From Phoronis australis (lineage: Eukaryota > Animalia > Phoronida), in the NCBI GenBank assembly GCA_002633005.1, contig NMRA01000393.1:234034-298033 (forward strand): DNA of 64,000 bases, written 5' to 3'. A program made the position numbers and the translations under genes. Below are positions 6,300-33,155 of the stretch, piece by piece. Every line of letters starts with the position of its first letter. Positions within the stretch are counted from its first letter, which is position 1. The notes below the pieces were generated by a model, which saw only the letters and a program-made list of their open reading frames with translations, had not been told where the DNA came from and searched no databases.

Positions 6300-9110
6300 C
6301 ATCAAAATTCACCATATTTCATAAAAATCTGTCAAGGAACTTCAAACAAACAAAGGAAAAACAAAAAAAAATGAAATTGCCACATTAGGGGGCACAGCGT
6401 CAACCTGAAAGCTGTCGTCTATTGTTATCTTCATATAAATACACTTACTTATAATGATCCTGCAGTGAGTTTAGGAGATACAGCTATGGGCGCAAAACAA
6501 AACTACCACTAAGAGGCACCACAGTATTCAAAGCCGACATCGTCAACGTTCTCATCACACTGAAAACATATACGCCAATTTTCAAAATCATTCTTAGAGT
6601 GGTTTGGTTGATAGAGAGGTGGACGCTTAAAAAACAGACTCAAAAACAGTAAAGCAAAATACCTCGAATCCATCCAAAAGTAGCAGGATAGCGTCCTCTC
6701 ACTAATACATGCCTTAAATCTGTCAAATTTTATGAAAATCCGTTGAGGACCTTTGAAGATACAAAGGTTAACGTAAAAACTAAAATTGACACAAGGGGGC
6801 GCAACTGTAGTCCGATCGATGTGAAAGTCGTCGATGTTCTTTCCCAACATCATATAAATATACTTGCAACATTTAGTAAAAGATCCTGCAAATGGTTTAG
6901 GAGATACAGCCATGGGCGCAAAAGAACAAAATTGCCACTAGGAGGTGCCACAGTAGTTGAAGTCGTCAGAAAATCATCGTCATCTGCCCTCTTTACAGTA
7001 AGAACAAATATGCCAATTTTCGAAATCATACCCAGAGCGGTTTGGTTGATAGAAGGGCGGACGCAAAAAAAAAGATTCGAAAACAGTAAAAATGGCCACT
7101 AGGTGGCGCAAAGTATCTCAAATCCACTTGAAAACGAGTGGATGGTATCATAGATGCCTAACTGCCAACTTTTATGACAAGAGCAACGCAGAGCGTTGAA
7201 ATGCGCCCACAATTGCACCGCATATGGTATCCTTCTAGGGTTGTTTATTGGTACCATAAAGTGGCCAGTAGGCTGTACTTTGCAAAATGGAAAGGCATGG
7301 TCATTGTCTCCTCAATAGGCTAGGGGCAAAATGTGAGTAATCTTCATAATACAAGCACATCCTATACACCAGTTGCTTAAAGCACCACAGAAACATAGAA
7401 TTAAAAACAAATTCACCAACATACGAGATTAGCACAGCATTAGAATGCCAGAAACAAATTTCTACTTGGAACTTTTCCTTCACAGTCACGAAGTAACACA
7501 AAGTATACACCTGAAGACCTATGAAAATACAGAGGTCAATGTAAAATACTAAAATTGCCACTAGAGGCAAATACTAAAATTGCCACTAGAGGCATACCGG
7601 TAATCAGAATCATCCTAAAGTCGTCATCGTCCGTTGTCAACATCACATAAATACACTTGCTAAATTTAGTAAAGATCCTGCAAACGGTTTGGGAGATACA
7701 GCCATGGGCGCAAAAAAAAAAAACTGCCACTAGGAGGCGCCACAGTAGTCCAAATCGTCTGAAAATCATTGTCAGCTGTCTTCCTTATAGTAAGCACATA
7801 CACGCCAATTTTCACAATCATCCTTTGAGCGGTTTGGTTGATAGAGGGGTGGACGCAAAAATACAGACTCGAAAACAGTAAAAATGGCCACTAGGTGGCG
7901 CAAACTACGTCGAATCCATCTGAAAACAGTAGGATAGCGTCATCTCACTAATAGGTGCCTACATACCAAATTTCATGAAAATCCGTTCAATACTTTTGAA
8001 GATACAAAGGTAAGCGTAAAAAACTAAAATTGCCACTAGGGGGCACACCGGTAGTCGGATCCGACCAAAAGTCGTCATCTTCCGTTGTTAACATCATATA
8101 AATATACTTACACAATTTGTAAAGATCCTGCGAACGGTTTAGGAGATACAGCCATAGGCGCAAAAAAACAAAACTGCCACTAGGAGGCGCCACAGTAGTC
8201 GAAATCGTCGGAAAATCATCGTCAACCATCCTCTACATAGTAAGCATATACATGCCAATTTTCACAATCATCCTTCGAGCGGTTTGGTTGATAGAGGGGT
8301 GGACGCACAAAAACAGACTCGAAAACACTAAAAATGGCCACTAGGTGGCGCAAACTATGTCGAATCCATCTGAAAACGGCACGATAACGTCATCTCACTA
8401 ATAGGTGCCTACATATCAAATTTCAAAATAATCCGTTCAGGACTTTTGAAGATAGAAAGGTAAGCGTAAAAAACTAAAATTGCCACTAGGGGGCACACCG
8501 GTAGTCGAATCCGTCCCAAAGTTCGCACATGCCGTCCCATTCATGAATGGAACATATGTGCCAAATTTCATGAACGTATGTCAAAGGGTTTTGGAGATAG
8601 AGCAGCGGACGCCGGACGCCGGACGGACGCCGCCCGGACGGACGGACGGACGGACAAAGATGACTGCATAATGCGTCCACATATAAATATGTGGGCACAT
8701 AAAAATCCATTGAGGACCTCCAAAGATACAGAAGTAAGCATAAAAAACTAAAATTGCCACTTGGGGGCACATCAGTAGTCGGAGAGGTCTGAAATTTGTT
8801 GTCATTCGTCGTCAGCTTGATAGGAGCACATTCTGCCACATCTCATAAAGATCCTGAGTGGTTTAGGATATACAGCTGCGGATGCCGGACAACGGACGCC
8901 CGGACAGAGATATATATATGCGACCACAGCGCATAATAATCATCACATTAGGTGGCACAGAGGTTGCCCGATCGGTCTGAAACTCGTCAGCTGTCACCAG
9001 CTTCATAGGAACAAATCTGCAAAATCACATTAAAACCTTGCAAGGGGTTTAGGAGAAACAGCAGAGGCAGCCTGACGCCCAGACAGAGAGCATGTCACGC
9101 ACACATGTAC
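6300..9110 (-). mobile_element. Nest of non-autonomous Helentron-like (HINE/DINE-1-type) elements; the complete youngest copy spans 7177-8700
   Basis: Terminal acaagag plus stem-loop CAACGC-aga-GCGTTG (7184-7198), subterminal inverted repeat atgcgcccac (7201) / gtgggcacat (8691), hairpin ccacatat-aa-atatgtgg, (GGAC)n microsatellite 8607-8655 and internal ~450-bp higher-order tandem core. It is inserted at an AA/TT site within an older copy of the same family. Confidence 0.8.
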
Positions 9111-10561
9111 ATATTTATTATTTATTATTTATTATAATGAATGCTATGCAAAAAATAACAGCTATGCCTCTTGGGCTTATGGTCACCTGACACAATTAAA
9201 CATATGAGTGGTACTAGTTCATGGCACAGGCTTAACTCTTGTGGCAATCTTGAGGGCATTACAATATTATAAAAACTGCAAGAGCTTCTGGATAACTCAG
9301 AAACAAGTCTAGAAGGGAGGACTCACCCTGGACTCCCATCTTAAATGACTGATGTCTTGTGCAAACTGTGTTCTAAATGTTTGGTCAACAATCTATCTCC
9401 TTCAGGTGACACAGGGTTATGATTGGCTGCATGGTACATTGGACTATTGACAAGTATGCAGCCATTGACAAACAATGAACAAACACTTCAACAATGAGCA
9501 ATCAATAACTTATTAACTTATACCCTGTGGTCATCCTAGTTTCAGTGTGCAAAGATGAACCAAGAGCATCAGAGGAAAGAAAATTGAGCAGTTCAGAAAG
9601 CAGACCTGAGTATGACAGATGGTCTGAGTAAGCTAAATGTTGGCATGATATTCTATGAACACTAGAACAAGATATAATACAATGAGCTAAATGTTGGAAT
9701 GATATTCTATGAACAGTGTCCTGAGCATGTTTACAACACCAATATTTAGAATCAACACTCAGCTCCTGTCACTTCTTCAAGTGGTTCACTCTGATTACAT
9801 TCGACATGCAAAAAATCCATACTAAATACGTAAAACAAAGAGGAATACATCTGATGTAAGTTTGTCTCAACTTTCCCAAATGAGCCAACCATGCCAAAGA
9901 TAAGAACATCTGCATGACAACTTTTTCTGTCTCCAATGTTGAATGGTGCTCAACACCAAATCTGGCCACATTGCGTATAATGGGTATATTTCACCTCAAG
10001 TAAAACAAGAAGGAAATGAAAGCGCTCTGATGAGCGACACCTGGTGAAATCAATTGAAAATTTAAAGGTGAGTTGGACAACAAAACTTTTCAATAACCAG
10101 TAATTTCCTGACTTAAACCAACCTACATCAAATGATAAACCAATGAAAGTGTTGAGAAATGTGGTAATAAAAGCAGTCAATAAATCAGTAAATCTTGAAT
10201 AACTTGAAAACAATGAGTCATAGCGAGAAACCAAGTTGAACACACATTGCAAATAGCTCACGAGGCGATCCATTTACATACAAAATTTGAAACGGTGAGG
10301 TGAAAGGATCACAGAGCTAGAATTAAAAATATGTTGGTCACTGAGCAACAATAAATTGCACCAGAATTTGCCCCCAAAACAATAGTCTACAAGCTATTTA
10401 TTAGATAAACAATGTATAAAAATTTCATGTTGATCAGACAAAAAATGCAATCTTTAACACAAATAAATTGACAGGCCAACAAAGTAGAGTTAGAAATAAA
10501 TGAATTCAAGAAATCTCAAATTTAATGTTAAGTCGTAGCGAGATTGCACAACACTTGAAAT

Positions 10562-10780
10562 CATTCAACACACCAATATTGAGAATTATTCAACACACCA
10601 ATATTGAGAATTATTCAACACACCAATATTGAGAATTATTCAACACACCAATATTGAGAATTATTCAACACACCAATATTGAGAATTATTCGACACACCA
10701 ATATTGAGAATTATTCAACACACCAATATTGAGAATTATTCAACACACCAATATTGAGAATTATTCAACACACCAATATT
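10562..10780. repeat. 25-bp minisatellite, about 9 copies
   Basis: Unit attcaacacaccaatattgagaatt, nearly invariant. Confidence 0.95.
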
Positions 10781-11479
10781 CACACAGATTTGTCAAGGAA
10801 CGCCGAAGATATGGCACAAAAACTCAATTAATAGGAAATCAGTCATCAGAAAATCTGGAATAACTCAAGAACAAGTAAAACAAATGGCAAACTTCCGATA
10901 GCCAGGAAAATGATCTATTCAGAGAAAACAGAAATATCCCTCAAGAGACAGCCGAGCAAATATGGCTCTGCAAAGAAAGATGTTGAAAAATAACCATTTC
11001 AACTCCATCTAATGCCTCAAAAACCAAGAGAAATTATAAGACTTCAAGCTTTATTCATGGGACACATGCTGTGTGTTTACATTCTACGTTGATCAGATAC
11101 AAAATGCAATCTGTAGCGCGCGAACAAAGAATAAAACATTTTTTTACAAATCCAAAGACTTGGAATAATGAGATTTCTCCAAGTAACATCTCCAAATGAA
11201 AATAAACCATAGCACAAAACACCATCTTCATCTATTATCACATCAATAAGCAAATAGAACAGGTTACCATAGAAACTGTCACTTTACATCATTTGGACAG
11301 GTAAATGCTACTAATCACCAAGTTGAAGGTGAATAATCATAGTTATACTCACCCACAAGAAAAGCAACAAAATATGCATGTGTTTTTGACATAAAAACAT
11401 CCAATATAAGTAATGTCACTGAATACGACTGAATACAGTTGGCAATATGACAAATCAAAGTAATGTCAGTGAATATGAC

Positions 11480-12690
11480 TTAAAGGCGAAGGCAACCTGT
11501 TTTCGTGTCATTTTTAGCATAAATAAGGTTCATTGACTATCCCAGACATATTTTCCACTTAATTACAGATTTTCGTTATCTAATTAATTATTCGTTCTCT
11601 ACTGCGGAAGTGACATTTTGGGAGGCAATAATTTCGTGCCAATTTCTTTTCATATAGTCCGACTTATGGCTTTGGCTTTTACCTTCATTCTCTGTGATGA
11701 GAGACGACTATGGACTGTGAGGAATTCAGCTTCTGCCTAACTATTGTGACGGGACATTTAGGGTCATTTTGTCTCAATACTTTTCCAGAACAGATAACAC
11801 CAGGTCAAATATGTGATAATAAGGGAAGTTTTAGTCCCTGAAGTCCCTACAATTAAGTCACAACCATTTTGCGTTATGAAAGCGACAAAACTCTATTCTG
11901 TCTCAGTTCTGTTTAAGTCTGGATGCAGGATAAAGAAATAGGGAAATTGATCAGATAGTTGTAAAAGCAGAAAACACACTATTATCTAGACTATTGTCAG
12001 CATTTTCAGCTGGGTGCTGTCAAAATGATTTCAGACAGTTTTTTCAACAATAGTTACTACGAAATCATCTTACCTTCAGTAAAAGTAACAGGACTAACAC
12101 AGCAACATAAAAGGAAGTTGCTGATAATTTTTTTCAGTTGCAAGGAGGTTCCTATTTTTAAGAGCTCATAATTTAAGATTAATACTTCCAAATATTTACA
12201 CTTAAAGTACAGGTTGCTAAGTTATTGTGCTAACCATACAGCAATCAACATTTGCGGGTTGCATGGAATAGTTGAGTTTAAATATTGAATTTCAGTGTAT
12301 AATATTTCATAATGGTTATTTTGAATTGTGTGTGTCCTTGGGCACTTTTTCTTAGCACCAGTTATTAGGTAATTCTTTGTAATTATAGCAATAGTCCTCC
12401 AACAACAGAACACAGCCAGATGAAGTAAAGTATTATATACAAAGTAGTATCACCTCGTGTTCTGAATTCTTGAGAAAAAAAGTGAGTCTCATTCTGAATA
12501 TTTGTGAACTGAAAAATTGTAAAGCCTTAAAGATGGTGCCTGAAGCCAGTCAAAATACTAAAATAAGACTACGCGTAGGGTACTATCAACAGCAAAAGTG
12601 GGCTTTTCTCAAGTTACTTTTCATACTATAATTATGACGAAGCTCTGTACACAATTTTCAAACACGAACACCAGCCTTGCCTCCCCTTGC
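11480..12690. mobile_element. Old non-autonomous TIR DNA transposon (TTAA-GG termini, Kolobok-like)
   Basis: Left end ttaaaggcgaaggcaacctgttttcgtgt; right end acacgaacaccagccttgcctcccctt is an imperfect reverse complement. No ORF. Confidence 0.45.
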
Positions 12691-13519
12691 TCTATGATTA
12701 TGAATAATACAGTTGGCAAAATGTTAGTTCTTATGACCTAGTCACTTGAAGTTATGTGGTACCTTCAATTGACATGTCTTTGCATTAAACAAGAGATCTA
12801 GAAAACTATAGATATTAACACAGTAAAAATATACACTTTCTGAAAATGCAAAGCCTGTAGAAGTTTGCTTTTCAGATTTTTTGAGAATCTGTTGTTATTA
12901 ATCGGGTCACATGACTATATCCTTTTAGTAAAATATAGTAAAAAGAAAGGCACAATTGCATAGCATAATAATGTTATCGACTACATGATCAAATTTTATT
13001 GGATATAAATATTCAAGGTGAGAGCTCAAAAACGTTGAAATATCATTTCATTTTTGTTCTATGCAATTTTAAAAGTCTTTCATGAAAATTGTGAAAGTTT
13101 TATTTGTATATCCCCTCCTGCAAAAGTGGATCATTTTAAAAACAATTCCTATCCGCGTTCTTAAAAACAGGGCATAAAACAATAGTAAGTTAAAGCCTCA
13201 TATTTATGTTCGGAATATGTCCCGAAAATAATAGGTGCGTCGCAAGCTCCATTTCCAGAGATACAAAGCACTCTAATGCAAAACTTTATCCCATTCTCAG
13301 CAATGTTTATCACCATGAACCCAGACCAGTTAATTTAACTTTTGATTTAGACTGCTTTCTAACTAGTCTCAGCCTGTTCCTAACTCAGATGAGAAGTCAT
13401 TTCTGGGTTTACAAAGAACTCACACAACCATGGTTATAGCATAAAAGGACACTCCTGCACACATCCATGGGTAGAGCATAAAAGGATACTCTGTGACTAT
13501 TAGCTAACTTGTAGAGCAC

Positions 13520-14803
13520 ATTAGACCTTCTCCTGTAAGTTAAAGTTGTCATCGTCAACCATCCTCTTCGCACTGAGAATATACACGCCAATTTTCAAAA
13601 CCATACTTAGAATAATTTGGTTGATAGAGGAGTAGACACCAAAAAACAAGACTCGAAAACAGCAAAAATGGCCACTAGGTGGTGCAAAATACCTTGATTC
13701 CATCCGAAAACAGGAGGATAGCATCACGTCACCAATAGAAGCCCGTATTCAAAATCTTATGAATATCTGTTGTCAACATCAAAAAACACTTGACAAAGAT
13801 CCTGCAAATGGTTTAGTAGATACAGCAATAGGCGAAAAAATGAAACTGCCACTAGGAGGCGCCACAGTAGTCGAAGTCATCAGAAAATCATCACCACCCG
13901 TCCACTTCATAACAAAAACATACATGCCAATTTTCACAATTATTCTGAAAGCGGTTTGGAGGGGTGGACTCCAAAAAACAGACTCAAAAACAGTAAATAT
14001 GGCCTCTAGATGGCGCAAACTAGGTCGAATCCATTTGAAAACACAAAGATAGCGTCACCTCACTAACAGAAGCTTGTACACCAAATTTTATATGTTGACG
14101 ACCTTTGAAGATACAGAGGTAAACATAAAAAAATAAAATTGCCACTAGGTGGCACACCAGTAGTCAGATCTGTCCGAAAGTTGTCGTCGTCCGTTGTCAT
14201 CATCATATTAATTCACTTAGTACTAAATTTAGTAAAGATCCTGCAAATGGTTTAGGAAATATAGCCATAGGCACAAAAAACAAAACTGCCACTAGGAGGC
14301 GCCACAGTACTCGAAGTCCTCAGAAAATCATCGTCAACCGTTGTCTTCAAAGTAAGAACATACATGCCACTTTTCACAACCATGCTTAGAGTGGTTTGGT
14401 TGATAGAGGGTTGGACGTTAAAAACACATTCGAAAAGAGTAAAAATGGCCACTAGGTGATGCAAACTATGTCGAATCCATCAGAAAATGGGGGGATGCCG
14501 TCGTCTCACTAATAGATGCCTATATACCAAATTTTGTGAAAATATGCAGAGGACCTTTGAAGATACAGAAGTAAACGTAAAAAAATAAAATTGCCACTAG
14601 GGGGCACACCGGTAGCCGGATCCGTCCGAAACTTCGCTCATGCCGTCCCATCCATGAAAGAAGCATGTGAGCAAAATTTCATGAACATACGTCAACCAGT
14701 TTTGGAGATAGAGCAACGGACGCCGGACGGACGCCAAACAGACGGACGACGGACGGACAGAGATGACGGCTAATGTGTCCACATATAAATATGTGGGCGC
14801 ATA
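13520..14803 (-). mobile_element. Helentron-like non-autonomous element, same family as 7177-8700, truncated at the stem-loop end
   Basis: Same core subunits (gccactagg..ggc), (GGAC/AGAC)n tract 14717-14760 and terminal hairpin gtccacatataaatatgtgggcgcataa. Confidence 0.8.
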
Positions 14804-14967
14804 ACAGTGAACTGTAAGTTTGTTCCAAGCCTAGCCATCACTCCTCTGTGAGTAGTAAGTAAAGACCTGAATCTTACATTCTACGAAGTGGTCCCAATCA
14901 AAAGGTAGTTACTTGACAGAAGGCAAGGAAAACACCCTGTTACACAATTAATGCAGTTGTACAATCT

Positions 14968-15306
14968 GAGAGTTGCATGGACAGCGGTGCCCTCAAGGCA
15001 CGTTTTTCAATGGCCAAAATTGCTCTTTGTGAGTGAGAGTTGCGTGGACAGTAGCCCCCTCAAGGCATGTTTTTCAATGACGCAAGGTGCTCTTTCTGAG
15101 TGAGAGTTGCCTGGACAGTGGCCACCTCAAGGCATGNCCCGCAAGGCATTCAATGGCCAAAAGTGCTTTTTGTGAGTGAGAGTTGGGTGGACAGTGGCCC
15201 TTTCAAGGCATTCAATGGCCAAAGGTGCTCTTTATGAGTGAGAGTTGCGTAGACAGTGGTGCCCTTGAGGCATTCAATGTCCAAAGGCACTCATTTTGAG
15301 TGAGAT
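14968..15306. repeat. Degenerate ~57-65-bp minisatellite, about 5 copies
   Basis: Unit approximately gagtgagagttgcgtggacagtggcccctcaaggcattcaatggccaaaggtgctcttt; contains a single N at 15137. Confidence 0.85.
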
Positions 15307-17218
15307 TTTAACAACCCATCAAACGTTATGTAACTAAACACCATACGTTAGTATTATAGGTTATTAGGAATTACATCAATGTAAATAAACAGTGCTTAAT
15401 TGTTTTCTGTAATTAACATTTTGAATAAAACTAGTCTCAAAGGAAATGCCTAATTAAGGAAAAATGTCTCAGTTCACAAAATGATGAAAATTCTACCTAC
15501 CGGTCACCATCAAAAGCATCCCCAACCCTGTTGGATGCCCTCATTGGCTCTGCATCAAGTAGCGAAAACTAACACTTTGTGCACTGGAGAATATGTTCAC
15601 ATACGTTCAAATCACTGACAGTTTCACTAATAAATTAAAACGCTATTGAAAAAGCTAGTATGTTTGCCAAACAGACGGTTGTACACAAAATTGATGTCAA
15701 AACTGGCTGCTCTAAATGGATGATGAACAAAACTTCTTACCCCTGCACATGGTGTGTCCTTTGAAGTAACGGTCTGACTACAAAAGTGCCGGTCCCAGCT
15801 GTTTGAGGTAACTAAAGTCTTCGGCATTTAGTAAAAGAACCATTAAAGGTTACACACTGTTCAAATCACTGGTATTATTGCTACTTCATAACAGCAAAAG
15901 CACTTTGCAAAAGGGGTGATGGTTAATAAGAATCTAACAACAATGCAAAAATCCAATAAAAAACAAGCTACACACACATATGTAACAGGAAACACCTGGT
16001 TGTAACCAGTAGCAGAAGGTGTAGTTACAAGGTTGCTAGGAGACCAGAGCCATATTATCAAGGTGCTTATTCAAGTCAAAGAACAGGTGGTTTGTTACCA
16101 TTTGATCTGGGTTCTTCTAATAATCACATGTGATGAAACATGATTGGCTGTCTCTGATAACAACTGACAACTTTGTTGTTCACAGCACTCACTTGACTGA
16201 CAAACTGACTCATGCAGTGATGTGTGCAAAGGATGTGAAAGTTAGCACTCTCCATCATCATTTTTCAGTGTCATTTGGCTGTCTAAACAGAAAACGCTGA
16301 TATAGCCCACAATCTGCCTTCCTTAAACAGCCTCCAACACAGATTACCCCATGCCAAAAGATCTCTTCCTATTAAGATCAATCAATTTCTAGAAGTGCAT
16401 CACCAATCAACAGTGAAGTGATCTTTCTCATTGGCTTCACTACTCAACCAGCCCCCATCAAATTTAAATTGTTTAGTGATAACAGGATCATTGAAGTTAT
16501 CAATAGGAAGTGCAGCGACTACCGAGAGGATAGAAATACTATATGTGAATTTTTTAAATGTTGTTTACGTATTTTAAAAACAACTAAAATGAAATGCTTA
16601 TAGAAGTTGGTTGTTCTTCATTTATTATACACATAAATAATTGCCAAAATTTTCACATTTCAAGGACAGGTTATTTTGTTGTTGGAAACGTTTCCCATGT
16701 AGATTTACACAGTCGGTGAAAACCAAGCTAATATAGACCAACATTATCTCATAATTTTATTGTGAAATTTGACAAACTATTGATGTGCCATTTGTGCTTA
16801 ATTGGTGGACAACAGTTAATATTTTAACCAAATTTCTACACATTTCTGAGACAACACCTGCTGTTCATGATGGCAACATGTGCTGATAACTTCAGTGACA
16901 CCCAGCGGCCCAAGTTAAGTGTTTCCACTAGTCCCACTGCCAAGTAAATCCACATGTTTACTGCAAAGTATTTAGCATTCTCACAGACTAAGTATTCCTC
17001 TAAACACTGAAGTCAGAGTTAACCACAAGTGGTTCCATAGGTTTACTATAAATTGTAAAAAATGTATAAACCATTATTATTCAATATTTTCCATTTACCT
17101 TTTTGATCAAGCATAATTATAATCAGGATGTTTTAGGTATTAGGCCTGATAAGAACAGATATTGATGTTATGACTGAACTGATTAAACTTGAGGTTTAAT
17201 GGCACGCTGTAATAAACA

Positions 17219-17620
17219 TGGTGTTCCTTCGAAGCTGGAATCCCGGTGTAAAACAGATATCCCGGAGTCGAAAACAGACTTCCAAACATTCAAAACAGTT
17301 AACCAGCCCAAAACACAAACCCCAACCTTTAAACAAGAACCCCAGGGATTGGACAGGAAACCTGGACAATTTTTTTAGGTCTCTGGGTTTCCTGTTCAAT
17401 CCCTGGGGTTCCTGCTTTAAAGGTGGGGGTTTGTGTTTTCCGGGCTGGCTAGCTCAGTTTTGAAGGTGCAGGAACCTGTTTTCCACTGTGAGATATCTGT
17501 TTTACACCGTGAGATATCTGTTTTACACCGTGAGATATCTGTTTTACACCGTGAGATATCTGTTTTACACCGTGAGATATCTGTTTTACACCAGGGTTTC
17601 TGTTTCGATGGAACACCCTA
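17219..17620. mobile_element. MITE with ~40-bp TIRs and an amplified 21-bp subterminal repeat (second copy 18790-19588)
   Basis: Left ggtgttccttcgaagctggaatcccggtgtaaaacagatat; right atatctgttttacaccagggtttctgtttcgatggaacaccc. The unit ctgttttacac(c/t)gtgagatat occurs about 6 times here and about 25 times at 19047-19560. Confidence 0.75.
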
Positions 17621-19912
17621 ATAAAGAACCTGCATGGTTTGACAGAAGAAAATCCTTAAAATTGATGACAGCCTGATGGGAACTACAGTTAACATTTCCT
17701 TAAAGGACTGGGTCATTATGCCATCTCATCACATTTCATTTTCTTTATTCAGGACATGCGAGTTTTTTTGTAAACCACTTTCATCATAATTTGAGACATC
17801 TTGCTTGAACCATGACTTCTCAAGTCCATCAAACTTACAGGCATGACCCTGAAAAGAAAGTCGTACAATGCATACCAGTGATTTTGTCCTTGAACAATTT
17901 ACCTTCAATCTCCCTTGAAGCTATCAATCCCATCGACTGCTCATATCAATCTCACCGACTGCTCATCTTTCACTGCCCTGGAAGCAAAAAAGAAATCAAA
18001 ACTTAACAACTGGTCAGCTCTTAAAAGCAAATAACAGCCTGTAGTGAACTCGGAGCTAGGCCATGAGACAACTCTTACGTTAACATTTGGGATTTTGTTA
18101 CCCCAACGCCTAAGCGAGCCCAAGCCAGACGGCGAGCCCAAGCCAGACGNAACTAAAATGAAATGCTTATAGAAGTTGGTTGTTCTTCATTTATTATACA
18201 CATAAATAATTGCCAAAATTTTCACATTTCAAGGACAGGTTATTTTGTTGTTGGAAACGTTTCCCATGTAGATTTACACAGTCGGTGAAAACCAAGCTAA
18301 TATAGACCAACATTATCTCATAATTTTATTGTGAAATTTGACAAACTATTGATGTGCCATTTGTGCTTAATTGGTGGACAACAGTTAATATTTTAACCAA
18401 ATTTCTACACATTTCTAAGACAACACCTGCTGTTAATGACTGCAACATGTGCTGATAACTTCAGTGACACCCAGCCAAAGTTAAGTGTTTCCACTAGTCC
18501 CACTGCCAAGTAAATCCACATGTTTACTGCAAAGTATTTTTAGCATTCTCACAGACTAAGTATTCCTCTAAACACTGAAGCCAGAGTTAACCACAAATGG
18601 TTCCATAGGTTTACTATAAACTGTAAAAAATGTATAAACCATTATTATTATTCAATATTTTTCATTTACCTTTTTGATCAAGCATAATTATTATAATCGG
18701 TATTTTTAGATATTAAGGCCTGATAAGAACAGATATTGTTATGACTGAACTGATTAAACTTGAGGTTTAATGGCACGCTGTAATACACATGGTGTTCCTT
18801 CAAAGCTGGAATCCTGGTGTAAAACAGATATCCCGGAGTTGAAAACAGACTTCCGATCATCCAAAACAGCTAACCAGCCCAAAACACAAACCCCAACCTT
18901 TAAATAGGAACCCCAGGGATTGGACAGTAAACCTGGACAATTGTTTTAGGTCTCTGGGTTTCCTGTTCAACCCCTGGGGTTCCTGCTTTAAAGGTGGGGG
19001 TTTGTGTTGTCCGGGCTGTCTAGCTCAGTTTTGTAGGTGCAGGAATCTGTCTTCCACTGTGAGATATCTGTTTTACAGTGTGAGATATCTGTTTTACAGT
19101 GTGGGATATCTGTTTTACACTGTGAGATATCTGTTTTCCACTGTGAGATATCTGTGTTACACTGTGAGATATCTGTGTTACACTGTGAGATATCTGTTTT
19201 CCACTGTGAGATATCTGTTTTACACTGTGAGATATCTGCTTTAAACTGTGAGCTATCTGCTTTACACTGTGAGATATCTGTTTAACACTGTGAGATAACT
19301 GTTTTCCACTGTGAGATATCTGTGTTACACTGAGAGATATCTGTTTTCCACTGTGAGATATCTGTTTTACACTGTGAGATATCTGCTTTACACTGTGACA
19401 TATTTGCTTTACACTGTGAGATATCTGTTTTACACTGTGAGATATCTGTTTAACACTGTGAGATATCTGTTTAACACTGTGAGATAACTGTTTTACACTG
19501 TGAGATATCTGTTTTACACTGTGAGATATGTTTTACACTGTGAGATATCTGTTTTACACCGGGGTTTCTGTTTCGATGGAACACCCTAATAAAGAACCTG
19601 CACGGTATGACAAAAGAAAACCCTTAACATTGACGACAGCCTGATGGGAACTACAGTTAACATTTCCTTAAAGGAGTGGCTCATTATACCATCTCACCAC
19701 AAAATGTGAACATTTCATTTTATTTATTCAGGACATGTGAGTTTTTTGTAAACCACTTTCATCATAATTTGAGACATCTTGTTTGAACCATGACTTCTCA
19801 AGTCCTTCAAACTTACAGGCATGACCCTGAAAAGAAAGTCGTACATTATTTTTCAAAATTTACATACAAGTGATTTTGTACTTTAACAATTTACCTTCAA
19901 TATCCCTTGAAG

Positions 19913-20047
19913 CTATCAATCCCATCGACTGCTCATATCAATCCCATCGACTGCTCATATCAATCTCACCGACTGCTCATATCAATCTCATCGACTGCTC
20001 ATATCAATCTCATCGACTGCTCATATCAATCTCACCGACTGCTCATC
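19913..20047. repeat. 22-bp minisatellite, about 6 copies
   Basis: Unit atcaatctcatcgactgctcat; only 2 copies in the other unit at 17923-17967. Confidence 0.9.
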
Positions 20048-20194
20048 TTTCACTGCCCCTGGAAGCAAAAAAGAAATCAAAACTTTAACAACTGGTCAGC
20101 TCTTAAAAGCAAATAACAGCCTGCAGTGAACTCGGAGCTAGGCCATGAGACAACTCCTACGTTAACATTTGGGATTTTGTTATCCCAACGCCTA

Positions 20195-20362
20195 AGCGAG
20201 CCCAAGCCAGACTGCGAGCCCATGCCAGACAGCAAGCCCAAGCCAGACAGCGAGCCCATGCCAGACAGCGAGCCCAAGCCAGACAGCGAGCCCAAGCCAG
20301 ACAGCGAGCCCAAGCCAGACAGCGAGCCCAAGCCAGACTACGAGCCTAAGCCAGACTGCGAC
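20195..20362. repeat. 18-bp minisatellite, about 9 copies
   Basis: Unit agcgagcccaagccagac; produces the spurious SEPKPD and GLGSLS ORFs. Confidence 0.9.
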
Positions 20363-20535
20363 TAACCCCTACCCATCCTAACAGATTACCAAATAAATGC
20401 TCGTGGCTTAATAGCGGTGATGGTGAAGAAAACCTATTCAATAATGTCTTTTATAATGCATCAATTTTAAAAATTAATACAAACTACTATTTGCTTTTCA
20501 AGTTTAACAAGAGTCATGTTGGTTGTTTGTCTTAC

Positions 20536-21716: not shown

Positions 21717-21781
21717 ATACCATATATTTTCAAGTTTCCCAAATCACGACAGACGTTTATTCTTACCATGCTCCCCACCAG

Positions 21782-21900
21782 TTCTCCACCCCGGGTATTC
21801 CTAATTCTCCACCCCGGGCATTCCTAATTCTCCACCCCGGGTATTCCTAATTCTCCACCCCGGGTATTCCTAATTCTCCACCCCGGGCATTCCTAATTCT
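21782..21900. repeat. 23-bp minisatellite, 5 copies
   Basis: Unit ttctccaccccgggtattcctaa. Confidence 0.95.
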
Positions 21901-22393: not shown

Positions 22394-22526
22394 TGTCTGA
22401 CTTTGATACTCGCAGTGGCGACTTTGAGACCACCTGTATTTTTGCCAGCTCGCCAGTTCAATCTGAGGTCACATTGGTGACCTGCAGCTCACCAAATTGA
22501 GCATCGACTAATTTGGAGCTTTTGAT
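22394..22526 (-). other. Candidate 133-nt spliced exon with stops in all three frames
   Basis: Very strong acceptor attgatttttttattttcttttag| and donor ACA|GTGAGT on the minus strand. Confidence 0.45.
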
Positions 22527-25051: not shown

Positions 25052-25265
25052 TTATGCACCATACAATTAGGCTCTTGTCCTGAGTTTATGCACCATTCAA
25101 TTAATAGGCTCTTGTCCTGAGTTTATGCACCATTCAATTAGGCTCTTGTCCTGAGTTTATGCACCATTCAATTAGGCTCTTGTCCTGAGTTTATGCACCA
25201 TTCAATTAGGCTCTTGTCCTGAGTTTATGCACCATTCAATTAGGCTCTTGTTCTCAGTTTATGCA
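25052..25265. repeat. 34-bp minisatellite, about 6 copies
   Basis: Unit ttatgcaccattcaattaggctcttgtcctgagt. Confidence 0.95.
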
Positions 25266-26239
25266 ATTAAACAATTAGATCATCTGCTACATCTACCGTG
25301 GGTATCGGAGAAAACTGAAATTTGAAATGCCTGCAATAAATTACAAATTATATTAATTTACAATATAATTACCTGCAAACAGATTCTATAAAATTCATTG
25401 ACCACGAAAGCATCAGGATACCAATACCAAAATAATCTAGTTGCATATGGTGTCCCATAAGAAAGTTATGAGCTGCGAGAAACAGAATTTTTAAAACCGA
25501 CACCTCTGTTTGTATAAATTATATTAATTTATCATGCAGTAACATGCAAACCAGTTTCATCTAATTGACCACGATACTTCACCTGTGGTGCCTTAAGTAC
25601 CGTAACAATAGGCATCAATAGAATTTTGAATAATGGCGACCTTAGTTTGTATATTTATATAACGCTCAATTATTGGGAACAGTCAGCACTCTGAATTACC
25701 TAAGGCTACATGAAACAGCAAAGAAAAAACTTTATCCGATAAATCCCAATTCAGCCACTTCAGGCTCCCTGACCAATCAGTTTCAAATAGCGCTGTTGTC
25801 TAAAAGGCTCTTAGGAGTTGTTTTTGAAATGATCAACTTTTGCTAGAGAGGACACCAAATATAAAATTTTAATCACTTTTATGAAAAACTCAAACACTGC
25901 AAAAACAGAGATAAAAAAACAATTTTGAAAAATGTAAAAACGTTTAGATTTTACCTTGAACATTAATATCAACTGCAATATAGTCATCAGTTATTGATGC
26001 CATTATATTGTTAGCAATGTACCTAATCTTTTTGCTTAAACATGATCACATGATCCAATCTATGACAGTTTAACTGGTGTAACTCCAACATTAAATTGTA
26101 CAGGCTTTTTGCTTTCAGATAATAAATGCTCTTGTCGAGTTAAACGTTATAGTTTCATTGATTAAGGCTGTCCATAAGATCCTACACACCCTTAAGCAAG
26201 CTAAAAGCCAGAAAATTGTACCATTAAACAAAAACATAA

Positions 26240-28600
26240 AATTGAGAGTGCTCGCAGGAGCGACACTTGGCGAAACTACGCGAAAACTGGACGATGGGGA
26301 GGACGACTACGATCACGACGATGAAGGCGGAGATTATGAACAACATGATAACATTCATGTGACTAGCGAACAAATCAGTAAAAAATAACCTGCAGTCTTG
26401 TTCTCGCACTTGGTTTCTCGGATGGCAGACGAGAGGTTGATGGCAAATGCCAGCCACCGGTTTGCATCAAAAGTAGGTAAAAACTTGGCTTTTCTCATTC
26501 AAAAACACAAATAAATCAGTTTCCTGGCATCTGTTTACAACAGATTCCTCGAACAATGAGCCAAACCTGACATATGCCCAGTATATGAATTTTAGGCACT
26601 ACAAAATGCCCCGTGAACGCGGCCTAACTGTCACTAGAAAATGCCCCGTGGCCGTGGCCGACAATAGGCGAAATGAACAACAATGATTGTGATGATGAAG
26701 GTGGCGATTATGAGCAACACTATAACACTCATGTGACTACAGAAGATGTGAGAAATCAGTAAATAGGCTACAGTCTTGAGCGACACTTGGCGAACAGCAA
26801 AATCGGTCAACAAAGGAACAGCATTTTCAGAAACTCTAATAATTCAAAAAGTAGACGTCCTACAGACAAATTGAAAATCTCTTCTGAAAGTTCGTTCAAA
26901 ACTCTATGTAACCTGGCAGTTTCGCAACATTCCAGGAATTTTTGGAAAAATTGAAATTTTGGGGTTTTTTTTGAAATTCAAAATCAAATTCCTCGAAAAC
27001 GGTAAGTCTGAGAAAAATGTTATCGCAGAACTTTTAAAAGAGCATACTTCCAGGAATCCACATGCAAAATTCACGTCATTTGCTCTTCCCGTTCAAAATG
27101 CGACAGCAGAACGATCGAAAATGGGTGAAAATGCGCCAGGCCGCTATCTTGAAAGTGACTTCCGGTTTAACAAAATTTTATAAAAGCTGATCAAAAGCTA
27201 CAAACACGTGACCAGTTTGAAAATGATTGGTTCGCCAATGCGCCTTTTACAGGAGAAAATGTTTTCGGCCAGTTATCGAGGTGCGCATGCGCTATTGCCG
27301 ATATTTCCGCCATCTTTGACCAAAAGCTAAAGATTTACGGAGCCGTTGTAGTGCTTGTCTGCTATAATAATAGTACCAATTTTCAGCCCTGCACGTTGAA
27401 ACATGCAGCCTCTATGAGCTATGTCTTCATGGTCTTGTTCAACAGACGCTAAACCAACATCAGTGCAGCAACAGCTGTCAACAAAGGAACAGCGCTATCA
27501 GAAAATCTCGAATAATTCAAAAAGTAGACGTTGTAGCGAAAAATGGAAAATATCTTGTGGAAGCCCGTCAAAAACTCTATCTAAATTGATAGTTTCGCAA
27601 CATTCCATAAATTTTTCAAAAAAATTGAAATTTTCGTTTTTTTTTTGAAATTCAAAGTCAAATAACTCGAAAACAGAAAGTCTGAGAAACACGTTATCAC
27701 AGAACTTTTGAAATAGCATACCATAACGTAGAATTGTCGTGAGGGCTTGACAGGGACCTCAGGGGTCTCACACTCCATTGATTTATCCACATTATTTTGA
27801 AAACGCTTTGCCCAGTCAAACATTGTGTGTCATAAAAGTGATAAGCACATCAGCAGCTGACGCAGCAAGTAGAACTACTCTCGTTTATCACATTGGTGTA
27901 GACTCACAGTTGAACTGTGGTTTTCTGTTGACCTCAGACCGTCTGGAGTTGCACCATATACCAACTCCGGACGGTCTCTCACGACAATTTAGTGTTATGT
28001 TCAAGGAATCCACATGCAAAAATTCATGTCATTTGCTCTTCCTGTTAAAAATATGACAGCAGAACGATTGAAAATGGGTGAAAATGCGCCAGAGCCGCCA
28101 TCTTGAAAGTGACTTCTGGTTAAACAAATTTTTTTAAAATTTAAAAGCTGATGAATAGCAACAAATATGTAAACAATTTGAAAGTGATTGGTTCGCCAAT
28201 GCGCCCTCCACAAGAGAAAACGTTTTTGGCCAGATATCGAGGTGCACATGCGCCATTGTCAAAATTTCCGCCACCTTGACTGGAAGTCAACGTTTTTCAG
28301 CACAGTTGTACTACATGTGTTCTATAATAATCGTACTAAGTTTCAGTCTTGTACGTCAAAAATTGCGGCCTCTATGAGCATTTGAATCTGAAACCGGAAA
28401 CAAAATGGCCGCCACATCTGCCATTTTGAATTCGATCATGACCAAAAACTATAGGCTTCCAGGACTTTCTGATCTACACGTAGTGTGCAAAATTTGTGCG
28501 GATCGGACAAAAGTTGCGACCTGTAGAGTGCAAACATAAAACAAAAAATTTGATGGCAGAGCAACATACTTGTCGGAATTCGGAGAATTCCGCCAAGTAA
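26240..28600 (-). mobile_element. Second Helentron-like non-autonomous family with two ~670-bp internal tandem units
   Basis: Terminal agagtgctcgcaggagcgacac stem-loop followed by the subTIR acttggcgaa (26265; repeated at 26785). The opposite end has the hairpin acttgtcggaattc-gga-gaattccgccaagt (28569-28598) containing the complementary subTIR. Units 26805-27420 and 27478-28380 are colinear. Confidence 0.65.
27722..27999. mobile_element. 278-bp TIR MITE inserted into the second core unit
   Basis: TIRs cataacgtagaattgtcgtgag / ctcacgacaatttagtgttatg. The element is absent from the homologous position of unit 1 (agcatac|ttccagg at ~27041-27054). Confidence 0.85.
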
Positions 28601-29927
28601 CTAGATTGACAAAATGCATGTACCGGGTAGTACCATTCAAACTTTCATGCAGATAATGCCTAGTCAGTCAGCTAACATTAGTATCTACAACCATCTATTA
28701 AATAGTCATTTTCGGACACAGCCACAGCTGTGACATGCTAAAATTTGTTGTGTGCTGTGCTTTATCTGGTGTCAGATAGACTATAATATGTGCAACCCCC
28801 CCCCCCCACAATGTCATCAATGGAGATATTAAGCAATAACAGTTTGTTTTAACTCTTTGCTACCACCATGATGTCATTAAACCACTATTGTTGACAATGC
28901 GATAATCAAGTGATTCCTAAAAAATGTCTGTCACTAAAACGAGCTTAGGTTTTGTCTTCATTACTCTATCTATCTTATGACTAGCCACAATTTGAAAATG
29001 TGACATACAAGTCATTTTTATAGCATTGCAACACTTAAACACTCGTAGTCCTATGTTGAATTTTTCCCATTATGTACTAGAATCTTGTATCAACCCAGGA
29101 ATCTTTACCGTTTACTGCTCTGATAGGCAGTAAGTCATGCTAAGGCTACACATAATTCTTACCTTAAACTTTAATAATCAAATATCAGTGCGAATACTGA
29201 AAGTGTATACTTTAGCACTCAAAAGTGTTGTTTCAATTCTGATGAAACACCTTGACTAAAAACTCAGAATACACGCTTAAGACTTAGGTGTCAATATCAA
29301 ACAAGACTGCAGAGGAGATACAAAATTGACAACAAGACAAACTGTTAATATGCTAACAAGTGAAGAGCATTTAGAGACTCAGACACAGACAGGTACTTAT
29401 TTCAATAACAATATGTGACCAGGGCAAGAAAACCAAAGTATAATCTCCCTGTCAAATGTGTACTCACACAATAACTACTCTCATCTGTGTAGACTGTTCA
29501 CCTGGCTTGCCTGAATATATCTTATGTGCTATAAGTCATACTTGGTGTCGAATGCAATGCACAAGCACACCGAGGAAGCCACGATATGTAGTAGCAGTTT
29601 GTATGATGATATTAAGCCCAACAATCTAGAAAGATGGTCAGCATTATTTAATCATTTGCACACTATTGATCTCTTGATGTAAAAATAGCTATTCATCAAG
29701 CAAAAATAATCCCCCAAGAATGATTACAGTGACAGATATGATGATATGATAGTGCTAAAAACACAAAGTATTTGTACATGTATTTTGGTACCAATCCAAA
29801 ACTATTTGTTTTATACCGTATTGCAAAAAAATATCCAAAATCACCTGGCATTTCCCTTATTACCTGGCCTTCATCTAAGTGATCAATTACAAGAAGGAGC
29901 AATAGTGACTGGCCAAATACCACACAC

Positions 29928-30800
29928 AAGTAAGGTGTACACCTAACTAGTTGGCTGACATCCATGTAAGATGTACACCTAACTAGTTTTCGGACATCCA
30001 AGTAAGGCGTACACCTAACTAGTTGGTTGTGCTAATACTACTGCTGACTGCTTTATAGTGCTAATAAACTACTGCTGACTGCTTCATAGTGCTAACTTTA
30101 TTTTTTCATTTGTGCTTCTGTTTTCGGAGTTCCTTGACAAATTGTCATGATACCTGGCAAATAGATTGCTATCAGGAAAATGGCAAGGGCCTCAGTTCAA
30201 TGTATTCTTCCACACGCATTGACCATGTTTATGTTACACATGAACAACTCGGTTCACCCAACTAAGGTGTACACCTTCCATGGATGTCAACCAACTAGCT
30301 AGGTGTACACCTTACTTGCTTGACACCCAACAAAATTTGCAGCAAAACACACTGTCAACCAACCATACATCTCCGACTTGGATTTCAACAAGCCAGTTGG
30401 ACAGCACACCATCGGGTGTTAAGGACTGAGTACTCCAAAAGAGTAGGTGGAGCTGATTAATTGGCTGCAAACTCAGAAGCAATAGTAACTCCACCAGCGG
30501 TACTGTTGGACAAAATGATCTAAGAGACAGATGGGGAATTGGTTGCTTATCTTAAAACCAATAGCTGCCCCACCTGGTGGTGGAAGCAAAATGGGTGTAC
30601 ACTGGGAGTGCCTTTTTGGTTGTCAACTAATCACTAAGTGCTCCACCAGATAAGGAATCAGAGACAGAGAGTGAGTTGACTGATCCAGAGGGTGTTGAAA
30701 TGTAAGTGAAGTTGGTTGAGTGACACATTATTAAGTCTCTCTTATCACACTTTGATAACTCAATGTGTACACCTGAGTTGGTTGACATCCATGTCAGATT
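29928..30800. repeat. Cluster of ~37-bp repeats in direct and inverted orientation (probable MITE relic)
   Basis: aaggtgtacacctaactagttggctgacatccatgt x3 at 29930-30030, inverted copies at 30258-30320 and another copy near 30765. Confidence 0.6.
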
Positions 30801-31883
30801 TTGACATGTATGGATATTCAGTGAGGGTCAGATAAAAAACAAAATTGCCACCCGAGCATGTCACATGTGTTCCGACCCATCAAAACAATGTTAGCTACGA
30901 TCTCTTTAATGCAAAAACATCTGCAAAATCTCATGACAGTCCTGCTGGCTATGGTATTTAGCCCATAGAGACAGATGGCAAAGTGGCAGATACAGAGACA
31001 AAGTTAACGTAAAACTAAAATAGAACTAGCACACCAGTATTCAGATATGTCTGTCGGTCATCTTTCGTCCGCTTCACAGAAACACACCGGCCAAATTTCA
31101 TAAATATCCATGGGCAGCGCACCACTAAAAAAGTGGGGGCTAAAGCCCCCTCGGCCCCCTGTGGTGCATCGCCTATAGACCATGTGCGGCATAGCACTGA
31201 AAAAAGTGGGGGACTATAGCCCCCAGCCCCCTGAGGTGTGCCGACCAGGCTATCCTACAAGCAATTCAAGAGATACAGCTGTGTCCGACACCAAACACCA
31301 GACTAAAATGACAGCAATATACACACACATTTGGTTAAATTTGCATTTATTTAGAACACTCACCTCATTTCATAGCCTCAAAATTATATGGTAAAATTTA
31401 TAATACTTGGTTCCTCACTTTTTCACACACGGCTACTAATGGTGGGAATTTCTTGCCTGAACTTGATTCACACACTCTCAGTTTTGCACCTAGTTTGAAA
31501 ATGTCTATGCAAACTCCTATTGACACGTCTTTATGGTAACTATTTTGATAAGGTATGATGAACAATGGCTACATTGACCACTATCTATCCACATGGGATA
31601 TCCCATGCTTTATTGTAAATTAAAGGTGAAAGGGCCACTGACTAATAGTGACTGTCATGTAATCCAGAGACATTTTCACAAGAGAATTTCACCAACAATG
31701 AGGCAAAGTACAATAAAGAATTACCTATTTGTGGGAGTACAAAAATGTTCAATACAGGTGTGCAGGCAATTTCGGATGGTTCACTACAATTAACTTGCAT
31801 TAAGTCTAAACATAATGAAGGCTGCCTTAGACCACCAAACAGTCTTTGATGGTCATCCTCTCCAAAGACTACACCACATAAAA

Positions 31884-33155
31884 ACAAGAGCAACGTGAAG
31901 CGTTGAAATGCACCCACGAATGCACTGCAAACGGTGTGCTTCTATGGTGTATATTTGCGTCATAAAAATGGCCATTAGATAGTGCAAAATATTTCGAATC
32001 CATCAAAAAACTGGAAAATGTCTCTGTTTTTTAACAGAAAGTTATTTATCACATTTCATGAAAAACGTCAAGAAACTTTAGCAAAACGGTAAAAATGAAT
32101 TTGCCACTAGGGGACAACGGTTCATTGGATCTGTCTGAAAGTTGTCGTCTTCCATGGCCTGAACGTCATATCAATACACTCTCTAAATTTAATAAATATT
32201 CTGTAGAGGGCTTAGGAGATAAAGGTAAGGGCGCAAAAATGCCACTAGGAAGCGCCACAGTAATTGTAGCTGGAAAATCATCGTCAAACGTCCTGTACAC
32301 ACTAACAATACATAAGCCAATTTTCACAATCATCCTAATCGTGGTTAATGGTTGACAGATTGCGGACAGCAAAAACAGACTAGAAAACAGTAAAAATGGC
32401 CATTAGATGGCGCAAAATATGTCGAATCCATCTGTAACCACTTCTTTAAAAGAAAGATATTTAACAAATTTCATGAAAATTCGTCAAGGAACTTCAGAGA
32501 AACAGGAATACAGAAAAATGAAATTGCCACTAGGGGGCAGCGTTAGTCGGACTCGTCTGAAAGTCATCGTCTTCTGTTGTTAACTTCATATAAACACATT
32601 TACTACATTTAACAAAGATCTTGTAGAAAGTTTAGGAGATATGGCCATGGGCACAAAAACAAACAAAACTGCCACTAGGAGGCACCACAGAAATTGAAGT
32701 CGTCAAAAAATTATCAACCATCCTCTTCATAGTAAGAGCATACATGCCAATTTTCACAAATATCCTTAGAGCGGATCTGTTGATGGAGCGGCAAAAAATG
32801 GACTCCAAAATAGTAAAAATGGCCACTAGATAGCGCAAATGCCTCGAATCCATCCGAAAACAAGAGGATAGCGTCACCTCATTAATAGATGCCTGTGTGC
32901 CAAATTTCATGAGAATCGGTAGAGGACCTTTGAAGATAGAGAGGTAAACGTAAAAAAATAAAATTGCCAACAGGGGGCACAGTGGTATTTGGGTCGGTCC
33001 GAAACTCTTCGCCCTCTGTCGTCAACCCCATAGGAACACACCTGCCAAATTTCAATAATATCCAGCAAGGGGTTTAGGAGATACAGCCGCAGACGTCGAA
33101 TGCCCAGACAGAGATGATGGCAATATGCACCCACATATAATTATGTGGGCGCATA
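31884..33155 (-). mobile_element. Complete Helentron-like non-autonomous element, same family as 7177-8700
   Basis: acaagag-CAACG..CGTTG stem-loop plus atgcacccac subTIR on the left; gcacccacatataattatgtgggcgcat hairpin on the right; about 8 core subunits; A-rich flanks. Confidence 0.8.

What the first reader, a model, noticed from the sequence alone, without database searches (positions are those of the whole stretch)
6370..33000. Rolling-circle (Helentron-like) element whose satellite core is an array of co-oriented CTCF-consensus motifs at roughly nucleosome spacing
Seen: each ~150-bp subunit of this family contains a conserved GC island: TGGCCACTAGGTGGCGC (7093, 7885, 8335), TGCCACTAGGGGGCA (8031, 8481, 14592, 32525), TGCCACTAGGAGGCGCC (7725, 8175, 13847, 14287) and TGGCCTCTAGATGGCGC (14000). 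In the best copy the motifs are spaced 161/145/144/161/145 bp, forming a 450-bp three-subunit higher-order repeat. About 30 intact or degenerate motifs occur over three loci (6.4-8.9, 13.7-14.6 and 32.0-33.0 kb), all on the + strand, and the motif looks better conserved than the flanking subunit sequence. Known: the CTCF core consensus is approximately TGGCCACCAGGGGGCGC with YAGRKGGC tolerated; CTCF is a bilaterian insulator/loop-anchor protein; mammalian B2 SINEs spread single CTCF sites. Inference: a non-autonomous Helentron could be seeding phased, directional CTCF arrays genome-wide (mobile insulator cassettes), or recruiting CTCF to protect itself. I do not recall such an array-carrying rolling-circle element being described.
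Basis: partly seen in the sequence, partly recalled or inferred. Interest (0 to 1): 0.85.

Follow-up and report, generated by a model that had tools for sequence, protein, structure and literature searches.

The report
Rolling-circle transposon carrying CTCF-motif arrays
A very common non-coding jumping element of a marine invertebrate carries rows of ~150-base repeats, each with a close match to the binding site of the chromosome-organising protein CTCF; the match has outlasted heavy change in the rest of the repeat, so CTCF likely binds it, but binding and any insulating effect are untested.

Summary
Observation confirmed. The window holds four co-oriented copies (one nested in another) of a non-autonomous Helentron (HINE/DINE-1/pearl type) in a probable lophotrochozoan: subterminal repeats, hairpins, microsatellite, no target duplication. 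Each ~150-bp subunit carries a CTCF core: type A equals a published in vitro reference site over 14 of 14 bases; type C scores p=3e-8 with the fly matrix. Subunit types are 59-63% identical yet share 12 of 14 motif bases, differing only at two tolerant positions. A distantly homologous repeat family from another bilaterian has the same box, inverted; oyster HINE arrays lack it. Against the 'mobile insulator' reading: other boxes are equally conserved, substitutions in copies do not spare high-information bases, the second family's copies decay neutrally, co-orientation and 150-bp period are generic for HINEs, the vertebrate upstream module is absent, and no occupancy data exist. Best reading: CTCF-type sites kept by constraint on the element's source lineages, not host-selected insulators. 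Ten paper searches found no CTCF-array Helentron; Helitron-borne HSF-1 arrays and transposon-borne single CTCF sites are precedents. This scan flagged CTCF-like repeats in other genomes before, but not this family.

The parts
31884..33157 (-). Copy W: full-length non-autonomous Helentron (HINE), 8 motif positions
   Evidence: both termini present; 80-81% identical to the other copies
33125..33156 (-). 5' subterminal inverted repeat nested in a 14-bp-stem hairpin (subTIR + IR) of copy W; same module at 8671-8702 and 14773-14804
   Evidence: fold z=-5.6 for W, -3.1 for X
31884..31918 (-). 3' module of copy W: 3' subTIR, short stem-loop, terminus before a T run
   Evidence: stem-loop z=-2.4 with flanks
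7177..8703 (-). Copy X: complete ends, 450-bp three-subunit higher-order repeat (7569-8522); inserted into copy Y inside an A/T run without target duplication
   Evidence: joined flanks restore the repeat consensus
7177..7211 (-). 3' module of copy X: 11-bp subTIR (7201-7211), 6-bp-stem/3-nt-loop hairpin (7184-7198)
8606..8658 (-). (GTCC)n-type microsatellite between the 5' hairpin and the central repeats; degenerate equivalents near 14720-14760 and 33085-33110
   Evidence: sequence
6340..7176 (-). Copy Y, left part (older copy interrupted by X); its 3' terminus was not found
8704..8938 (-). Copy Y, right part, ending in a degenerate microsatellite and a truncated hairpin
13540..14805 (-). Copy Z: 5' hairpin end intact, 3' end truncated, 7 motif positions
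8033..8046 (+). Type A CTCF-consensus site (also 8483, 14142, 14594, 32527, 32967 and degenerate copies)
   Evidence: 14 of 14 bases equal the start of the Spec-seq reference site of PMC5694663; zebrafish matrix p=3e-7, fly p=6e-5
8177..8190 (+). Type B CTCF-consensus site (also 7727, 13849, 14289, 32672)
   Evidence: fly p=1.5e-6, zebrafish p=5e-7
8338..8351 (+). Type C CTCF-consensus site (also 7096, 7888, 13672, 14003, 14449, 32400, 32823)
   Evidence: fly p=3e-8, zebrafish p=1e-5
8940..9100 (-). Single-subunit fragment of the same family
   Evidence: 71% to 32972-33122
55944..56441 (-). CEP19 coding exon; used only to place the host and to calibrate read depth and library strand
   Evidence: Pfam PF14933 E=1e-46; best named hits molluscs and an annelid, 57-60%

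Best explanation
This is a high-copy non-autonomous Helentron (HINE) whose ~150-bp central repeats each keep a CTCF-consensus site, likely because host CTCF binds it and this would help the element's source copies stay open and get copied. Shown: the HINE anatomy, insertion in an A/T run without duplication, the motif match, and its retention while the three subunit types diverged by about 40%. Inferred: mobilisation in trans by a RepHel enzyme of an autonomous Helentron (none in the window); CTCF binding; a benefit to the element (with sites every 144-161 bp, full occupancy would leave too little room for a nucleosome between sites, so a bound array would be a nucleosome-poor patch rather than a phased one). 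After insertion the copies decay largely without regard to CTCF affinity, so any insulation of host genes would be a by-product.
For: Anatomy: searches match PMC4067079. Match: 25 of 28 homologous sites reach p<1e-4 with the fly or the zebrafish matrix (20 of 28 and 21 of 28). Deep retention: A/B/C consensus 59-63% identical, motif invariant at 12 of 14 columns against 49 of 114 elsewhere (Fisher p=0.003); the two variable columns are the N of AGGNGGC (PMC1904468) and position 13, where the reference and canonical sites of PMC5694663 differ. Variants shared between copies: 3 in 38 motif columns against 89 in 372 (p=0.018). Genome-wide: 0 of the 33 best-supported variant places fall in the motif windows (expected 4.2, P=0.012; 377 further rows were not shown), and summed contig depth peaks on the three motifs (mean 2.3M against 1.2M). 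Recurrence: a profile of the window's subunits without the motif finds units of a second family (loci L003, L018, L043, L045, L053; best E=0.002) on the strand opposite to their own CTCF box; that family's host is a bilaterian by a neighbouring TBC1D24 exon; both its subfamilies share the box. Among 19 clusters with 138-167-bp period, the two bases not specified in the search follow the CTCF consensus (R-C) in 7, expected 2.2 (p=0.004), against 1 of 15 short-period clusters. Oyster HINE arrays lack the box, so it is not a general transposase requirement. Annelid CTCF exists and its motif tops ATAC peaks (PMC7854359).
Against: No occupancy data; CTCF gene of this organism not checked. The 26 substitutions in 24 of the 28 sites cost as much matrix score as random ones (-2.91 against -2.87 bits, p=0.62; no correlation with information content). 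Other 12-mers are as conserved as the motif, and type C ranks unremarkably (12% mismatch). In the second family, units not selected by the search show no extra motif conservation (58 of 403 against 506 of 3890; 40 of 291 against 455 of 2814) and end the site in GT rather than GC. The vertebrate upstream module is absent (best p>=0.08 in 6 element sites). The metagenome scan was motif-selected, had no scrambled-pattern control, and also returned bacterial, viral and protein-coding repeats. Matrix p-values are optimistic: hits outside the elements were 30 and 33 against 11.7 expected. A/B/C descend from one monomer, so they are one origin, not three.
Confidence: 0.5

Rival explanations
1. The box is conserved for a protein other than CTCF (the Helentron's own RepHel or another host zinc-finger factor), or is a passenger kept with neighbouring conserved boxes; the likeness to CTCF is a chance of one ancestral monomer.
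For: Several boxes are equally conserved and the conserved stretch extends into the A-rich run upstream of the motif; no matrix-guided sparing; a shuffled monomer reaches the A, B, C scores in 10, 4 and 0 of 5000 trials, which is not negligible over the many repeat families that exist; pattern hits occur in genomes without CTCF.
Against: Variation between subunit types falls only on CTCF-tolerant positions; the box is inverted relative to the homologous boxes in a second family and absent from oyster HINEs, which is hard to square with a transposase site; unconstrained flanking bases follow the CTCF consensus more often than chance.
Confidence: 0.3
2. Host-selected mobile insulator cassettes: inserted arrays bind CTCF, insulate or anchor loops directionally, and are kept by selection on the host.
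For: Singleton changes are also fewer in the motif (14 in 38 columns against 205 in 372, p=0.058; G/C columns only p=0.019); thousands of copies; transposons seed bound CTCF sites in zebrafish (PMC7182764).
Against: No sparing of high-information bases; neutral decay in the second family; singletons include once-sampled subfamily differences; CTCF orientation does not pattern boundaries in echinoderms (PMC13317027) and annelid active sites are mostly single and promoter-near; 8% of this window is the element, too dense for each copy to be a boundary.
Confidence: 0.12
3. The motif is a palindromic stem-loop used in single-stranded rolling-circle intermediates or repeat expansion.
For: Type C is a perfect 5-bp palindrome around 3 bases (z=-2.0); a palindromic ancestor would also make inversion easy.
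Against: Types A and B break the stem at the variable position and fold no better than shuffles (z=-0.3 and +0.3), while unpaired-side bases stay invariant.
Confidence: 0.08

Closest known systems
DINE-1 / HINE non-autonomous Helentrons (Thomas et al., PMC4067079; passages read)
   Same: subTIRs, 5' IR nested with the subTIR, microsatellite, central repeats, 3' stem-loop, T-rich target, no target modification, no coding capacity
   Different: central repeats form a three-subunit higher-order repeat with a CTCF-consensus box; autonomous partner not identified
Oyster Cg_HINE elements with Cg170/HindIII-type arrays, pearl, DTC84, MgE (PMC7492417; part 1 of 7, passages, supplement searches)
   Same: short arrays of 140-180-bp monomers between HINE modules, fixed array orientation, conserved segments within monomers
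   Different: oyster arrays lack the box (five 9-mers covering it: 0 hits; CCACTAG 54 and its complement 11 in 3.35 million characters, cells cut at 400 letters); the paper does not mention CTCF
Helitron-borne heat-shock-element clusters of Caenorhabditis (PMC6927752; passages)
   Same: a rolling-circle element spreads tandem, clustered sites of one host factor
   Different: there HSF-1 binding and gene regulation are shown; here the factor is architectural and binding is untested
Transposon-borne CTCF sites: zebrafish non-autonomous DNA transposons such as TDR13B (PMC7182764; passages and supplement); rodent B2 SINEs (recalled)
   Same: a non-autonomous element carries a CTCF motif genome-wide
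   Different: ChIP-verified there; no Helitron among the 40 listed zebrafish repeat types; arrays per element are not reported in what I read
Helitron minisatellite-derived PATC barriers of C. elegans (bioRxiv 10.64898/2026.08.08.743475; abstract and section 13)
   Same: Helitron tandem repeats linked to insulation
   Different: protein-free 10-bp periodicity there; none here (1016 of 2000 shuffles reach the observed power)

Membership tests
HINE / non-autonomous Helentron | Subterminal inverted repeats (about 11-15 bp), 5' one a few bases from the end | tested here: met
   11-bp subTIR at 7201 and 31908 (one change) facing the copy in the hairpin at 8692-8702, 14794-14804, 33144-33154
HINE / non-autonomous Helentron | Short inverted repeat pairing with the 5' subTIR (DINE-1 type) | tested here: met
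   14-bp stem, z=-5.6; present in 3 of 4 copies, truncated in Y
HINE / non-autonomous Helentron | Short stem-loop near the 3' end | tested here: met
   6-bp and 5-bp stems about 7 bases from the end in X and W; modest z (-1.6, -2.4)
HINE / non-autonomous Helentron | Insertion in T-rich target without target-site duplication | tested here: met
   one empty-site test: flanks of X restore the repeat of Y at an A/T run; W and Z flanks are A-rich on + but have no empty site here
HINE / non-autonomous Helentron | Microsatellite and central tandem repeats, no coding capacity | tested here: met
   longest frames in the arrays 142 aa; frames inside the arrays were not scanned against Pfam; no Rfam match in 6000-34000
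HINE / non-autonomous Helentron | Autonomous Helentron (RepHel-endonuclease) with the same termini | not testable with these tools
   no genome held; no RepHel family among 152 window frames scanned (152 of about 317 frames)
CTCF binding site | Core consensus CC(1-2), AG(6-7), GGC(10-12) | tested here: met
   PMC1904468; matrix scores; identity to the reference site
CTCF binding site | Upstream module at 8- or 12-bp spacer (a subset of vertebrate sites) | tested here: not met
   best p 0.08-0.49 for 6 element sites
CTCF binding site | Substitutions spare high-information positions | tested here: inconclusive
   met between subunit types; not met among copies
CTCF binding site | CTCF orthologue in the organism | not testable with these tools
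   no genome; host likely lophotrochozoan; CTCF reported in molluscs, annelids, rotifers and absent in flatworms (PMC10658182)
CTCF binding site | Occupancy in vivo or binding in vitro | not testable with these tools
   no run labelled ChIP or ATAC among the 17 listed
Chromatin insulator / loop anchor | Enhancer blocking or insulation at the element | not testable with these tools
   no contact data

The most novel reading that the evidence does not exclude
Nucleosome-length central repeats of non-autonomous Helentrons in several bilaterian lineages have repeatedly kept CTCF sites, in either orientation, as a docking row for the host's architectural protein; one such family supplies tens of thousands of CTCF sites to a spiralian genome, making rolling-circle elements a main source of invertebrate CTCF clusters.
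Probability: 0.3. Interest if true: 0.8.

Novelty: new variant of a known kind. Interest (0 to 1): 0.55.

Why it matters
What CTCF does outside vertebrates is open: in spiralians almost no data exist. A family with roughly 10^3-10^4 copies, each with about 8 near-consensus sites, would be a large share of the genome's CTCF motifs, would bias motif and boundary enrichment analyses, and gives a natural experiment: polymorphic insertions with and without an array. It would also offer a protein-based reason for the long-noted conserved boxes in HINE central repeats. If binding fails, it is an ordinary HINE.

Tried and rejected
Own genome: not held. Hairpin role of the motif: rejected for types A and B. 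10-bp periodicity: none. Upstream CTCF module: absent. Rfam: 0 matches. Host gene around the copies: 146 frames gave no Pfam family and splice-like counts gave no strand, so whether the copies sit in introns is unresolved; base skews over 1-42 kb only hint at a - strand unit. Presence in other species: runs X6 and X8 (organisms B, C) hold the element with the same variants, but X8 does not cover the single-copy exon, so low-level DNA of the same or a close organism cannot be excluded; no claim made. No RNA holder listed by index; raw reads were laid instead. Pattern scans: the viral hit is a 14-bp minisatellite; 5 bacterial hits; L010 is a protein-coding repeat; these show chance background. 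No direct blastn relative of the element among 69 loci beyond one 38-bp match; HINE termini were not found in the second family's short loci, so its HINE status rests on box homology only. The 14-of-14 match between its subfamilies used motif-anchored units and is biased; (box-anchored) is the fair test. Cluster look-up gave no names. Earlier-findings look-ups by sequence and by genome returned nothing.
Full report
Observation. All 12 quoted motifs lie at the stated places, on + only. There are 28 homologous positions in three subunit types, A, B and C, spaced 161/145/144 bp in a 450-bp repeat.

Host. No genome is held. A CEP19 exon at 55944-56441 has its best named relatives in molluscs and an annelid at 57-60%: a probable lophotrochozoan. 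Run X1 covers that exon with a 0-difference contig at depth 47.5, so organism A is the window's organism.

The element. Read on the - strand it has the DINE-1/HINE layout of PMC4067079 (passages): a 5' subTIR inside a long hairpin (z=-5.6), a (GTCC)n-type microsatellite, central repeats, a 3' subTIR, a short stem-loop, and an end before a T run. Copy W (31884-33157) is full length; X (7177-8703) sits inside an older copy Y, and its joined flanks restore Y's repeat at an A/T run with no duplication; Z (13540-14805) is truncated. Copies are 80-85% identical. 27,712 contigs of run X1 lie on 656 bases of X; summed depth over single-copy depth bounds the family at about 850-26,000 ends, a wide range because short contigs overlap. 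The Helentron reading is about 90% safe; the autonomous partner was not found.

Is it a CTCF site? Type A equals the first 14 bases of the Spec-seq reference site for mouse CTCF (PMC5694663, passages). With the fly matrix (PMC1904468 Table S2) intact C sites score p=3e-8 and B 1.5e-6; with the zebrafish matrix (PMC7182764 Data S1) A scores 3e-7; 20 of 28 and 21 of 28 sites pass 1e-4, 25 of 28 with either. These p-values are optimistic, since hits outside the elements are 2.5-3 times the expectation. The vertebrate upstream module is absent.

Conservation, for. Aligned without anchoring on the motif, motif cells differ from the majority in 24 of 327 cases and other cells in 503 of 3433. The three subunit types are 59-63% identical but share 12 of 14 motif bases against 49 of 114 other columns (p=0.003); the two free positions are the N of AGGNGGC and position 13. 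Variants shared among copies avoid the motif (3 in 38 columns against 89 in 372, p=0.018). In genome-wide contigs and reads, 0 of the 33 best-supported variant places fall in it (expected 4.2; 377 weaker rows not shown; many of the 33 are private changes of copy X) and depth peaks on the three motifs.

Conservation, against. Other 12-mers are as conserved, type C ranks unremarkably, and the 26 substitutions in 24 sites (4 of 28 dropped for indels or shifts) cost as much score as random changes (p=0.62). Singletons are only marginally rarer in the motif (p=0.058; 0.019 for G/C columns). This is the pattern of constraint on source lineages followed by mostly neutral decay.

Elsewhere. A scan for two cores 125-155 bases apart gave 63 metagenome loci, 1 viral, 5 bacterial, 40 clusters in all. 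Many are chance, and no control scan was possible. Two internal tests stand. The two bases after the searched 12-mer follow the CTCF consensus in 7 of 19 metagenome clusters with 138-167-bp period (expected 2.2, p=0.004) but 1 of 15 short-period clusters (the 6 bacterial and viral clusters left out). And a profile of the window's subunits with the motif cut out finds successive units of one subfamily of a 13-locus family (best E=0.002), on the strand opposite to that family's CTCF box: related repeats, inverted box. A TBC1D24 exon in L040 points to a bilaterian host (a relative at 82% identity has a leech protein, 41%, among its top named hits). Both subfamilies keep the box, but unselected units show no extra conservation and no matrix sparing. 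Oyster HINE arrays lack the box (PMC7492417 supplement, first 400 letters of each cell).

How it likely works. Shown: anatomy, insertion mode, motif, deep retention. Inferred: a Helentron RepHel copies the element in trans; CTCF binds the repeats; sites every 144-161 bp leave about 130-145 bp between cores, less than a nucleosome wraps (147 bp, recalled), so a bound array would be nucleosome-poor, which would favour access to source copies (confidence 0.5). Rivals: another protein or a passenger (0.3), host-selected insulators (0.12), hairpin (0.08; A and B do not fold). The 150-bp period and fixed orientation are generic for HINEs. CTCF orientation does not pattern boundaries in echinoderms (PMC13317027, passages); in an annelid CTCF motifs top ATAC peaks but are mostly single (PMC7854359, passages); spiralian data are scarce (PMC10658181, PMC10658182, passages).

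An unexplained result. In RNA run X15, 23,098 of 12.75 million records lie on the element, 34:1 with the first mate on +. The - strand CEP19 gene gives first mates on + only, in X15 and X16, so the element RNA is its own HINE-sense, T-rich strand; other repeats in the control stretch are mixed (58:11, 15:10, 15:18). Either insertions in genes are strongly oriented or the element drives transcription; one run, no common start seen.

Novelty. Ten searches (listings and abstract starts) found no Helentron with CTCF arrays; subscription papers, Repbase/Dfam entries and bioRxiv supplements were out of reach. Precedents: Helitron-borne HSF-1 clusters (PMC6927752, passages), CTCF-bound non-autonomous DNA transposons in zebrafish, protein-free Helitron barriers (bioRxiv 10.64898/2026.08.08.743475, abstract and section 13); B2 SINEs are recalled. 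This scan noted CTCF-like repeats in other genomes, unchecked here. Verdict: new variant of a known kind, interest 0.55.

Noticed in passing
window 8075-8730 (family-wide reads of run X15): Element RNA is 34:1 from the HINE-sense (-) strand, calibrated on CEP19; other repeats are mixed. Orientation bias in genes or an own promoter; unexplained.
   Followed up: partly
window 33841-33854 +: Solitary near-perfect CTCF-consensus site about 700 bp outside copy W.
   Followed up: no
window 56831 (loose end of run X15): Reads of another repeat family (also at 13351-13419) continue into a CTCF-like word, so a second family in this genome may carry the motif.
   Followed up: no
window 7272-7511: About 240 bp inside copy X, between the 3' module and the array, with no match elsewhere in the window: captured or inserted DNA.
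   Followed up: no
window 7544-7594: Exact 25-bp tandem duplication of a degenerate type A motif.
   Followed up: no
L003, L005, L018, L036, L040, L041, L043, L045, L052, L053, L057, L061, L063: A 143-148-bp two-subunit repeat family from another bilaterian, distantly homologous, with the CTCF box inverted relative to the shared boxes.
   Followed up: yes
L004, L016, L015, L035, L044, L047, L064: Further AT-rich 145-160-bp repeats with the core, most followed by GC; hosts not determined.
   Followed up: partly
L001 1400-1700: A 14-bp minisatellite with a CTCF-like core in a giant-virus contig; taken as chance background.
   Followed up: no
window 16582-20361: 1-kb duplication with internal inverted repeats and expanding 18-, 21- and 22-bp minisatellites, a different element.
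   Followed up: no
window 55944-56441 -: Single-exon CEP19 coding sequence, expressed at low level.
   Followed up: yes
window 39105-39869 and 53677-54781: Near-identical tandem duplicates of 383 and 553 bp, each at a single N: probable assembly artefacts.
   Followed up: no
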